A stretch of 61,795 nucleotides of DNA, filler included, from Collodictyon triciliatum (Eukaryota): the NCBI GenBank assembly GCA_043381765.1. It is 9 parts of 9 records of this genome, joined end to end, with 100 filler letters (N's around TTAATTAATTAA, not from the genome) between each part and the next. Parts side by side here need not be neighbours in the genome. Positions count along the whole stretch, not along the records: positions 48,145 to 54,920 come from JBHJMP010004251.1; 8 more parts are not named here. One strand, written 5' to 3'. A program made the translations under genes and the position numbers. Shown here in pieces: positions 50,672 through 52,875 of this stretch (position 1 is the first letter of the stretch; each line of letters starts with the position of its first letter). The notes under the pieces are model-generated. The model saw only the letters and a program-made list of their open reading frames with translations. It was not told the DNA's origin and did not search any database.

Positions 50672-50714
50672 AATAAACTAAAAACCCCATAAATCAATTG
50701 AGTACGAAATAAAC

Positions 50715-50756
50715 TGATATTTATTTATTCTATATACCTAGAATAAATAAATATCA
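50715..50756. terminator. Perfect 18-bp AT-rich hairpin downstream of the HNH ORF (candidate 3'-end signal)
   Basis: TGATATTTATTTATTCTA-tatacc-TAGAATAAATAAATATCA. The function is inferred. Confidence 0.55.
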
Positions 50757-50872
50757 ACCAGAGGCCCTAGTTTCATGTCATTCAAATTAAGAATGTGCAT
50801 TCTTTTCTTGGTGCCTTCGCGCAACCTTTATCCTTTTATTTATTTGATTTAACAATGATATTGCCACTCTAG

Positions 50873-52875
50873 ACTTCCTTCCAAAAACTGGCTCCAATTT
50901 GATTGTCACTGGCGTGGAAGCAGCATTCAAAGCAGCTGGAAAGGAAGTGCCACCACTAAAATACGAATGCAAGAACGATATTCCGTTCTCCCGCGGATTG
51001 GGAAGCAGCTCAGCTGCCATTGTATCTGGAATCGTAGCTGGTAAAGAAGCATACATATCTACTTCTATTCGACCAAAAAACAATTTTACTTTATGTTACT
51101 GTCCTTTCTGCAAGGGTGTAAAAGTGGTCTTTTCTCATCTATGCCTCTAATTGGTTTCCATCTCATCTTGTGCTTCTGCTGATAGTAATAATACTATTTT
51201 ATCATTTTATTTATTTACATTTACAGCCGATAGCAAATATTTTGGGTATCTTGAAAATATCAGTTAACACAATGAGCTCTATATCCTCGTGGTACTTTCC
51301 TTTTCCTTTCCTTTTCTTTCTTTTCTTTCTTTTCTTTTCTTTTGTTTTCTTTTCTTTTCTTTTCTTTTCTTTTCTTTTCTTTTCTTTTCTTTTCTTTTCT
51401 TTTCTTTTCTTTTCTTTTCTTTTCTTTTCTTTTCTTTTCTTTTCTTTTCTTTTCTTTTTATTTAATTATTTTTAATCCAGGCTTAATCCTCGCCGGTCAT
51501 GAACTACCTGTCTCTGGATTGGAAGAGCTACTTCAAATCGCTGCAACAATTGAAGGTCATCCAGACAACGTGGCGCCAGCAATCTGTAAGCCGTTTCATC
51601 CACCACCGACATAAATGTCATCATAGAAAGCCTCGTTGATATGTATTGCAGAGAATGGAAAGTACTCTCGCGCTAACCGCATCTGATCGTATTTAATTTT
51701 TCATGATGTTTTCCCTTCTAGATGGAGGCATTCAAATCGGACTTCACACTGGTGAGCGTTGGTACACAACTCGTATTCGACTGCCTCCTGGACTCCAGAC
51801 GGTGCTTTATATCCCAGACAAAGGATGCGAAACATCTGAGGCTCGAGCTTTGCTTGAAAAGAAAGTTGGCCTCTCATAAATGACACATGATAATAACATG
51901 ATTGATAAATTCATTCTACAATGGTTTATTAGAATTATTTCCTTCTGATGTATTCATTCAAATTCGACATCTCGGTCGTCAGCCATGCTATTGGCTGTGG
52001 TGAATTACTTCATAATCACATCTATTCCTTTACACATATTCATTTCCCCCTTTTGCTGCAAGGTTGACCGTGCTGACGCTGTTTTTAATTTGTCCCGTAT
52101 TGCATTGCTCGTTCATGCTTTCGAATCAAACGATTTATCTGAACTCAAATATGCCACTCAGGACAAACTCCACCAACCACCCAGGTAACAAAAAGCTATT
52201 TTGTTTCACCATCATTCGATTTTAATTAATTTAAGTTGTCCTGACCATCGTGCTTTTTTATTGACTATTTGTAAAGGTGGGTTTGCCATGAACACAATTA
52301 ATATGTTTTTCTTTCTTTGGAGTCATCCACCTTAATTATATATCCCAGATGTGCAATCATCCCTGGCATGATGGAGATTATCAATGCATCCATGGAAAGC
52401 GGGGCCCACGGGGCATTTTTGAGCGGTGCAGGTCCAACCATCTTGGCCATTACAAGTGGAAGAAAAGGTTTGAATACGTCCATATCTACCTCTTTTCTTT
52501 TTTTGAGTTGGCTGGCTCGCAAATTATTGAAAAATGAAATTATTTCTATTATTATTTTATCATCCACCCCACAAAATACGATAAAAATGTATTCCTACTA
52601 ATACGCAGTTCAAAAGATAATTAGTTCTTTCATCGCATTTTATGGTTTGAAAGGAAAAAAAAAGTATATTTTTAAACGAATTGGCATGAAATGCAGGCGA
52701 CATTTATGCACAGCGAAGTGCCGAGCGAAAGGAAAAGGACGTTGCAAAGGCCATGATGGAGGCTGCAAAAACTCACAATGTAGTGGGAAGAGTTGTCGTG
52801 ACGCAACCAACTGACCGCGGGGCTTGGGTTGTATCAGCCAATCCTCCTCTTCCTGTGGATGGAACCGACGAATAA
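50873..52875 (+). CDS. thrB: Homoserine kinase (GHMP family); first exon(s) absent
   Basis: Exons 50873-51040 (NDIPFSRGLGSSSAAIV), 51481-51585 (IEGHPDNVAPAI), ~51722-51864, ~52063-52184 (DAVFNLSR..QDKLHQP), ~52349-52467 (GAFLSGAGPTI) and ~52697-52875. Confidence 0.93.

What the first reader, a model, noticed from the sequence alone, without database searches (positions are those of the whole stretch)
50672..51040. The viral element appears inserted in an intron of the homoserine kinase gene
Seen: about 115 nt after the viral hairpin there is a TAG acceptor (50870-50872) and an internal thrB exon (DFLPKTGSNLIV..RGLGSS). The conserved N-terminal homoserine kinase segment (P.(S/T).ANLGPGFD) is absent between the element and this exon. 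Inference: the first exon(s) lie on the far side of the element. The virus would then be an intronic insertion in a threonine-biosynthesis gene that is spliced out, or else it disrupts this allele. The contiguity also argues for true integration rather than co-sequenced free virus.
Basis: partly seen in the sequence, partly recalled or inferred. Interest (0 to 1): 0.72.

Follow-up and report, generated by a model that had tools for sequence, protein, structure and literature searches.

The report
Viral fragment abutting truncated thrB gene
One 6.8-kb contig joins the tail end of a small capsid-bearing DNA virus to a host homoserine kinase gene that lacks its first coding part; this is most likely an ordinary endogenous-virus insertion in an intron, but no reads could be checked.

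Summary
From 50873 a six-exon homoserine kinase (thrB) gene runs to 52875. It matches residues 54-331 of a 331-aa orthologue without gaps (246 of 278 identical), with five GT-AG introns. The N-terminal 53 residues are encoded nowhere in the window. Upstream lie intronless virus genes: the C-terminal 331 aa of a double-jelly-roll major capsid protein, a conserved 48-aa membrane protein, a Cys-rich protein and an HNH endonuclease. An 18-bp perfect hairpin follows at 50715-50756. Relatives sit on metagenome contigs of up to about 17 kb, one with an A32-type packaging ATPase, so this is a polinton-like or virophage-like virus.

The contig with the finding is 48145-54920 and opens inside the capsid gene. 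The far side of the element, a second junction and thrB exon 1 therefore cannot be in this window.

The junction lies within 50757-50872, a T-rich tail ending in a good splice acceptor, so an intronic insertion is the best reading (about 55%). It rests on one assembled junction, and read laying failed. Splicing across a virus of roughly 17 kb is doubtful where the gene's introns are 136-440 nt. This is a known kind of thing and of low-to-moderate interest.

The parts
48045..48144 (.). Artificial contig separator (N44-TTAATTAATTAA-N44). The contig that holds the finding begins at 48145.
   Evidence: The same separator recurs eight times, about every 6.88 kb. A TIGR-style separator with the same 12-nt core is documented in PMC539331 (passage read).
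48147..49142 (+). C-terminal 331 aa of a double-jelly-roll major capsid protein. The frame is open to the contig start, so the N-terminal ~200-220 aa are missing.
   Evidence: 34 proteins with E <= 0.001 among 1869 candidates; the best, P0001 (552 aa), is 77% identical over 100% of the query. An AF2 model of P0001 (pLDDT 72.7) matches iridovirus, Sputnik, mavirus and PBCV-1 capsid proteins at E 4e-16 to 1e-11.
49159..49305 (+). Small hydrophobic protein with an SSCC motif that always follows the capsid gene in this virus family.
   Evidence: One search lists the ORFs. One search aligns 8 sequences; identity to the window copy is 55-98%, with 19 invariant columns.
49321..49587 (.). Imperfect ~270-nt palindrome with an AT-rich core, between the convergent small ORF and the Cys-rich ORF.
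   Evidence: self-match of 270 nt at 78% on the opposite strand; core palindromes at 49429-49480.
49581..50246 (-). Intronless Cys-rich protein (221 aa), a viral accessory gene.
   Evidence: 7 proteins with E <= 0.001 among 49 candidates. P0155 is 98% identical. P0157 (70% identity over 71% of the query) is on 4 contigs, the longest 17,215 nt, the same figures as for capsid relative P0001. No Pfam or PHROG hit.
50336..50671 (+). HNH endonuclease (111 aa) of viral type.
   Evidence: PF13392 HNH_3 at 26.8 bits, cutoff 24.8. phrog_959 at E 7e-23. The Atlas neighbours are HNH_3/NUMOD4 clusters, mostly viral.
50715..50756 (.). Perfect 18-bp hairpin with a 6-nt loop, 44 nt after the HNH stop. Probably a viral gene-end signal and the last feature that can be assigned to the virus.
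   Evidence: AT-rich hairpins follow gene ends in relatives L007, L009, L010 and L012; no shuffle control was run for these.
50757..50872 (+). 116-nt stretch that holds the virus-host junction. It is T-rich and intron-like and ends in the acceptor TAG at 50870-50872.
   Evidence: the + strand turns from A-rich to T-rich after the hairpin. (acceptor context matches the other introns). The exact breakpoint is not determined.
50873..51040 (+). thrB exon encoding orthologue residues 54-110, with the GHMP motif GLGSSSA.
51481..51585 (+). thrB exon (residues ~110-145).
51722..51864 (+). thrB exon (residues ~145-192).
52063..52184 (+). thrB exon (residues ~193-233).
52349..52467 (+). thrB exon (residues ~233-273).
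52697..52875 (+). Last thrB exon, with the stop codon (residues ~273-331).
54212..54571 (-). Exon of a Bud13-like pre-mRNA splicing factor, a second host gene on the same contig.
   Evidence: PF09736 at E 8.5e-10, 39.6 bits, cutoff 27.
54921..55020 (.). Next artificial contig separator; end of the contig.

Best explanation
Contig 48145-54920 records one junction of a polinton-like or virophage-like dsDNA virus, whose relatives are about 15-17 kb, integrated in the nuclear genome of an intron-rich protist.

The viral side ends with capsid, small membrane protein, Cys-rich protein, HNH endonuclease and a gene-end hairpin. The breakpoint lies in the 116 nt between the hairpin (50756) and the splice acceptor (50872). 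That places it inside the intron preceding the thrB exon for residue 54 onward. The insertion separates that exon from the exon or exons for residues 1-53, which carry the first GHMP-kinase motif.

Shown:
- the viral nature of 48147-50756;
- an intact thrB gene model from residue 54 to the stop;
- absence of the N-terminal coding part from the contig and the window;
- uninterrupted contig sequence (no N) across the junction.

Inferred:
- that the junction exists in the organism's DNA;
- that the missing exon lies beyond the virus;
- that this copy is probably disabled rather than spliced, because the gene's other introns are 136-440 nt. A second, uninterrupted allele or copy would then supply the enzyme.

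The contig probably breaks inside the conserved half of the capsid gene because several related viral copies collapse there in a short-read assembly.
For: Virus:
- Capsid fragment: 34 relatives among 1869 candidates, best 77% identical.
- DJR fold of the full-length relative: Foldseek E down to 4e-16 against solved capsid proteins.
- An A32-type ATPase (PF04665, E 1.5e-9) is encoded on the same contig as the capsid gene in relative L010.
- The family-specific small ORF is conserved after the capsid gene.
- The Cys-rich ORF has a homologue whose contig figures match those of the closest capsid relative (4 contigs, longest 17,215 nt).
- The HNH is of viral type.
- All viral ORFs lack introns and stops.

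Host:
- Six exons give 246 of 278 identical residues to P0035 residues 54-331 without gaps, with five GT-AG introns.
- A Bud13 exon lies downstream.

Junction:
- There is no N in 48145-54920.
- Homology to the orthologue stops exactly at a YAG preceded by a T-rich tract like the other acceptors.
- The N-terminal segment is absent by tblastn, regex and profile HMM.

Background: endogenous PLVs and virophages are common in protist genomes and typically break short-read assemblies (PMC10120064, abstract and passages read).
Against:
- No whole genome is held, so exon 1, the other viral end, TIRs, a target-site duplication and an empty allele could not be sought.
- No integrase is seen in the 2.6 kb of virus present.
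- GC content does not change across the junction (0.36-0.42 on both sides).
- The viral ORFs are fully intact, and the Cys-rich protein is 98% identical to one on an unrelated public contig. That fits a circulating free virus as well as a recent insertion.
- The breakpoint inside 50757-50872 is not defined.
Confidence: 0.55

Rival explanations
1. Assembly chimera. A free or elsewhere-integrated virus present in the sequenced material was wrongly joined to the thrB locus. The true thrB has a short virus-free intron and its first exon on another contig.
For: - There is no read support for the junction.
- The viral genes are intact and near-identical to sequences on other public contigs (98%).
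- The junction region is AT-rich with short repeated TTATTTATTT-type words and a perfect hairpin, which can confuse assemblers.
- The assembly is highly fragmented: ~6.8-kb pieces, some with internal N gaps.
Against: - The join is within continuous sequence, not across a scaffold gap.
- The shared words at the junction are only about 10-12 nt, too short to mislead normal k-mer sizes (read).
- A free virus at its own coverage would be expected to assemble whole rather than break inside its capsid gene (inference).
- Virus-host junction contigs are the usual signature of real insertions (PMC10120064, passages).
Confidence: 0.22
2. Real integration, but the thrB piece is a truncated, dead copy. 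The insertion, or a rearrangement with it, removed the 5' exon, or this is a partial duplicate. No exon 1 waits on the far side, and a separate intact thrB serves the cell.
For: - The N-terminal 53 residues are absent from the 2.7 kb upstream.
- An intron of about 17 kb would be far outside the gene's range of 136-440 nt.
Against: The remaining 278 codons have no stop, frameshift or gap, are 88% identical to the orthologue, and all splice sites are intact. Any inactivation must therefore be recent. This does not separate the reading from a recent intronic insertion.
Confidence: 0.15
3. Insertion into a coding exon rather than an intron. Under this reading 50757-50872 is viral terminal sequence and the TAG at 50870-50872 is a chance look-alike of an acceptor.
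For: - The intron at residue 53/54 is inferred only from the loss of homology.
- No orthologue gene structure was available.
- AT- and T-rich sequence is common in both virus and host.
Against: - Homology ends exactly after YAG, with an upstream pyrimidine tract like the five confirmed acceptors.
- The strand composition turns T-rich after the hairpin, as in the gene's introns.
Confidence: 0.05

Closest known systems
Endogenous polinton-like viruses and virophages of protist genomes (Bellas et al. 2023, PMC10120064; Cafeteria endogenous mavirus-like elements, PMC8547959, search listing only)
   Same: - A small dsDNA virus with a DJR capsid gene and intronless, intact genes.
- Relatives of about 15-17 kb on metagenome contigs, one with an A32-type ATPase.
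- Found joined to host DNA in a fragmented short-read assembly that breaks inside the viral part.
   Different: - Only 2.6 kb of the virus and one junction are present.
- No integrase, TIR or target-site duplication was seen.
- The capsid family has no Pfam or PHROG model and no relative in IMG/VR or the phage collection.
- The junction lies inside a housekeeping gene's intron.
Solved DJR capsid proteins: Singapore grouper iridovirus 8hif, Sputnik 3j26, mavirus 6g44/6g45, PBCV-1 Vp54
   Same: Fold of the full-length relative P0001: Foldseek probability 1.00, E 4e-16 to 1e-11, TM-score about 0.44-0.54.
   Different: Sequence identity is 8-12%. There is no sequence-level match to any PDB chain. 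The window holds only the C-terminal 60% of the protein.
Homoserine kinase ThrB (GHMP kinase superfamily, PF00288 + PF08544)
   Same: Residues 54-331 of the orthologue are present in six exons, with the GLGSSSA phosphate-binding motif. The best hits carry PF00288 and PF08544.
   Different: The N-terminal ~53 residues with the first conserved motif are not encoded on the contig.
Free-standing HNH_3/NUMOD4 endonucleases of phages and large DNA viruses
   Same: PF13392 is above its cutoff and phrog_959 scores E 7e-23; size is 111 aa.
   Different: It is encoded beside a eukaryotic-virus capsid module. No target or homing site is known.

Membership tests
Polinton-like virus / virophage supergroup | Double-jelly-roll major capsid protein | tested here: met
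   The window fragment is 77% identical to P0001. The P0001 model matches solved DJR capsids at E 4e-16. Only the C-terminal 331 aa are in the window.
Polinton-like virus / virophage supergroup | FtsK/A32-type packaging ATPase in the same genome | tested here: inconclusive
   Present in relative L010 (PF04665, E 1.5e-9), whose capsid is 47% identical to P0001. It is not on the window's contig, which holds only 2.6 kb of virus.
Polinton-like virus / virophage supergroup | Genome of about 14-40 kb | tested here: inconclusive
   Relatives lie on contigs of up to 17,215 nt, whose completeness is unknown. The window's element is cut at 48145.
Polinton-like virus / virophage supergroup | Minor capsid (penton) protein, maturation protease, replication gene | not tested
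   The other ORFs of L010 had no Pfam hit. The 1188-aa ORF had only chance-level PDB matches. No structure was predicted for them.
Integrated (endogenous) viral element | Continuous sequence from viral genes into host genes | tested here: met
   There is no N in 48145-54920. Viral ORFs run up to 50671, and thrB exons and Bud13 follow. This is assembly-level evidence only.
Integrated (endogenous) viral element | Reads or long reads spanning the junction | not testable with these tools
No genome is held.
Integrated (endogenous) viral element | Second junction, TIRs, target-site duplication, integrase | not testable with these tools
   The contig starts inside the capsid gene. No other piece of the window has viral matches.
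Homoserine kinase (ThrB) | GHMP kinase N and C domains with the GLGSS motif | tested here: met
   Exon 50875-51039 finds homoserine kinases with PF00288 and PF08544. The full model is 88% identical to P0035 residues 54-331.
Homoserine kinase (ThrB) | N-terminal motif (P-A-T/S-x-A-N-L/M-G-x-G-F/Y-D) of a complete enzyme | tested here: not met
   Absent from the contig and the whole window by tblastn, regex and profile HMM. The gene as assembled is incomplete.
HNH_3 endonuclease | Match to PF13392 above the curated cutoff | tested here: met
   26.8 bits against a cutoff of 24.8; phrog_959 at E 7e-23.

The most novel reading that the evidence does not exclude
A complete, still-active virus of about 17 kb from an undescribed polinton-like lineage (no Pfam or PHROG model for its capsid, no IMG/VR relative) sits inside an intron of an amino-acid biosynthesis gene of a heterotrophic protist. 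The host's thrB is closest to a transcriptome protein and to a gene model labelled Nk52. The gene still works, either because the whole virus is removed as a giant intron or because the virus targets this intron as a safe harbour. That would link this freshwater virus lineage to a host and show intron-targeted lysogeny in a eukaryote.
Probability: 0.08. Interest if true: 0.6.

Novelty: new member of a known kind. Interest (0 to 1): 0.3.

Why it matters
If the junction is real, it ties a virus lineage seen so far only on metagenome contigs to a eukaryotic host. It also gives a concrete case of a small DNA virus landing inside a housekeeping gene, useful for asking whether such insertions are tolerated, heterozygous or targeted. 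Endogenous polinton-like viruses and virophages are already known to be widespread in protists, so the phenomenon itself is not new.

The practical lesson matters more for the scan. This window is a chain of unrelated contigs joined by artificial separators. Any inference that relies on continuity across 48045-48144 or the other separators is void.

Tried and rejected
- Whole-genome search for thrB exon 1 and the other viral end: no genome is held.
- Sequencing runs: 24 runs were listed and 20 hold part of the contig. None holds half of its words (best share 0.28), across 13 studies, and no RNA holder is listed. None was laid, so these rows are no evidence of habitat, expression or linkage.
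No read-level result exists.
- IMG/VR scans with P0001, with the capsid alignment, with the HNH protein and with the 40-nt hairpin: no relative in any.
- Phage collection, tblastn with P0001: no match.
- PDB sequence search with P0001: only chance-level rows.
- The listing of cluster members for P0035, P0155, P0157 and P0001: the database was switched off. The species behind P0035 and the records behind the 17,215-nt contig were therefore not seen.
- Earlier findings of this scan: nothing by place or by sequence.
- Paper searches: 'nucleariid' + 'polinton' gave 0 papers. 'Nk52' + 'Parvularia' gave 0. 'Nk52' alone gave only unrelated papers. My recollection that Nk52 denotes a nucleariid amoeba is unconfirmed and is not used as evidence.
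- GC content as a boundary marker: no step across the junction.
- Virus-carried thrB: rejected, because the gene has five spliceosomal introns and is followed by a host Bud13 exon.
- Other contigs of the window as carriers of more of the virus: no tblastx match to the related loci outside 48145-49330, apart from one chance-level row.

Full report
**What the window is**

The window is not one continuous sequence. N runs come in pairs of 44 that flank the 12-mer TTAATTAATTAA. They start at 6783, 13644, 20526, 27407, 34287, 41168, 48045 and 54921. The seven complete pieces between them are 6761-6782 nt long.

A six-frame-stop separator with this core was used to build pseudomolecules from unfinished contigs (PMC539331, passage read). 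I therefore read the window as a chain of separate, size-ordered contigs or scaffolds. Two other pieces also hold internal gaps of 570 and 478 N.

The finding lies in piece 48145-54920 (6776 nt, no N). Nothing left of 48145 can be assumed adjacent to it.

**The observation**

- **Hairpin.** Arms 50715-50732 and 50739-50756 form a perfect 18-bp stem with a 6-nt loop. The 201 nt from 50672 to 50872 fold at -20.6 kcal/mol against -11.4 ± 3.0 for shuffles (z = -3.09; 2 of 200 shuffles as good).
- **Acceptor.** TAG lies at 50870-50872, 116 nt after the hairpin.
- **Exon.** The exon that follows finds homoserine kinases: 265 proteins with E <= 0.001 among 327 candidates, the hits carrying PF00288 and most also PF08544.
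- **Gene model.** tblastn with six of these hits, followed by a search over GT/AG choices, gives six exons: 50873-51040, 51481-51585, 51722-51864, 52063-52184, 52349-52467 and 52697-52875. They translate without stop or gap to 278 residues, of which 246 are identical to residues 54-331 of P0035, a 331-aa transcriptome protein. The five introns are GT-AG and 136-440 nt long.
- **Missing N-terminus.** The first 53 residues of the orthologue, which carry the first conserved kinase motif, are encoded nowhere in the window. tblastn gave only chance-level rows, none in 48145-50872. A motif regex over six frames gave nothing. A profile HMM of the N-terminal segment, built from 81 of the 120 listed hits and run with all filters off, reached a best E of 2.7.

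One correction: 50873-50874 complete a split codon.

**What lies upstream**

- **Capsid fragment.** The frame 48147-49142 is open to the contig start. It is the C-terminal 331 aa of a protein of about 530-552 aa: 34 proteins with E <= 0.001 among 1869 candidates, the best (P0001) 77% identical over the whole query. It has no Pfam or PHROG family. An AlphaFold model of P0001, built on an alignment of 29 relatives (pLDDT 72.7, pTM 0.77), matches solved double-jelly-roll capsid proteins. These include grouper iridovirus, Sputnik, mavirus, PBCV-1 and faustovirus (Foldseek E 4e-16 to 1e-11), and many predicted viral capsids.
- **Relatives.** A metagenome scan returned 12 loci out of 330 pattern matches. 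In L010, from a contig of 16,409 nt, the capsid gene shares the contig with an A32-type packaging ATPase (PF04665, E 1.5e-9). The protein tables give longest contigs of about 15-17 kb for several relatives. This fits the polinton-like virus and virophage assemblage.
- **Small protein.** A 48-aa hydrophobic protein with an invariant SSCC motif directly follows the capsid gene in the window (49159-49305). It does so in all seven relatives aligned as well, with 55-98% identity to the window copy.
- **Palindrome.** An imperfect palindrome of about 270 nt follows at 49321-49587.
- **Cys-rich ORF.** A 221-aa ORF lies on the minus strand at 49581-50246. It found 7 relatives among 49 candidates. One is 98% identical. 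Another (P0157) has the same contig count and the same longest contig, 17,215 nt, as P0001. They may therefore share a viral contig, though I could not fetch it.
- **HNH endonuclease.** A 111-aa HNH endonuclease of viral type lies at 50336-50671.
- **Gene-end hairpins.** AT-rich hairpins sit just after gene ends in four of the five related loci examined (L007, L009, L010, L012). L003 has only an imperfect, GC-richer one (no shuffle control). So the hairpin 44 nt after the HNH stop is most simply the viral gene-end signal.

The virus therefore reaches at least 50756, and the junction lies within 50757-50872.

**The host side**

Beyond thrB, the contig carries a Bud13-like splicing-factor exon on the minus strand at 54212-54571 (PF09736, E 8.5e-10). 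It also carries microsatellites typical of the other pieces. The right two-thirds of the contig is ordinary nuclear DNA of an intron-rich eukaryote.

The closest thrB proteins are the transcriptome protein P0035 and a gene model labelled Nk52. I recall Nk52 as a nucleariid amoeba, but I could not confirm this and do not rely on it.

**Interpretation**

Similarity to the orthologue ends exactly after a YAG. That YAG is preceded by a T-rich tract like the five confirmed acceptors. The + strand also turns from A-rich to T-rich after the hairpin.

Endogenous polinton-like viruses and virophages are common in protists. They are known to fragment short-read assemblies (PMC10120064, abstract and passages). 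A contig that runs from unique host DNA into a virus and stops in the conserved half of the capsid gene is what several related integrated copies would produce. This last point is inference.

I put real integration with an intronic breakpoint at about 0.55.

**What is not shown**

- The junction is a single assembled join.
- No genome is held, and read laying failed.
- Exon 1, the other viral end, TIRs, a target-site duplication, an integrase and an empty allele all lie outside the data.
- GC content does not change at the junction.
- The viral genes are intact and nearly identical to sequences found elsewhere. That fits a circulating virus misjoined to thrB as well as a recent insertion.

I give the chimera 0.22, a truncated dead copy 0.15 and an exonic insertion 0.05.

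The intron would be at least 2.7 kb and probably about 17 kb, in a gene whose introns are 136-440 nt. A disrupted allele or copy is more likely. The intact remainder of the gene means any disruption is recent.

**Verdict**

This is a virus-host junction of a known kind, in an assembly that cannot verify it. The virus lineage itself is poorly described: it has no family model, no IMG/VR relative and no record in the phage collection. A confirmed host link would be useful. Interest is low to moderate.

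Noticed in passing
window 6783-6882, 13644-13743, 20526-20625, 27407-27506, 34287-34386, 41168-41267, 48045-48144, 54921-55020: Eight artificial separators (N44-TTAATTAATTAA-N44) cut the window into pieces of 6761-6782 nt. The window is a chain of size-ordered contigs, so no feature may be read across these points.
   Followed up: yes
window 29116-34179 (+): An intronless 1687-aa ORF encodes a NACHT NTPase with pentapeptide repeats and WD40 repeats, a STAND-type protein. 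It lies in a different contig from the finding.
   Followed up: no
window 17683-19092 (-): A 469-aa ORF with NHL repeats (PF01436, E 2.6e-27), in another contig.
   Followed up: no
window 49321-49587: An imperfect palindrome of about 270 nt with an AT-rich core lies between the convergent viral small ORF and the Cys-rich ORF. It may be a bidirectional gene-end element or a replication feature.
   Followed up: partly
window 49159-49305; L001, L002, L006, L007, L009, L010, L012: A conserved ~48-aa hydrophobic protein with an invariant SSCC motif always follows the capsid gene in this virus family. Its function is unknown.
   Followed up: partly
window 51300-51458: A long (CTTTT)n microsatellite lies inside thrB intron 1. 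It blocked read laying over the whole contig.
   Followed up: no
window 54212-54571 (-): A Bud13-like splicing-factor exon lies downstream of thrB on the same contig.
   Followed up: no
window 15845-16414 and 37254-37731: Internal N gaps of 570 and 478 nt lie in two other pieces, so those pieces are scaffolds rather than plain contigs.
   Followed up: no
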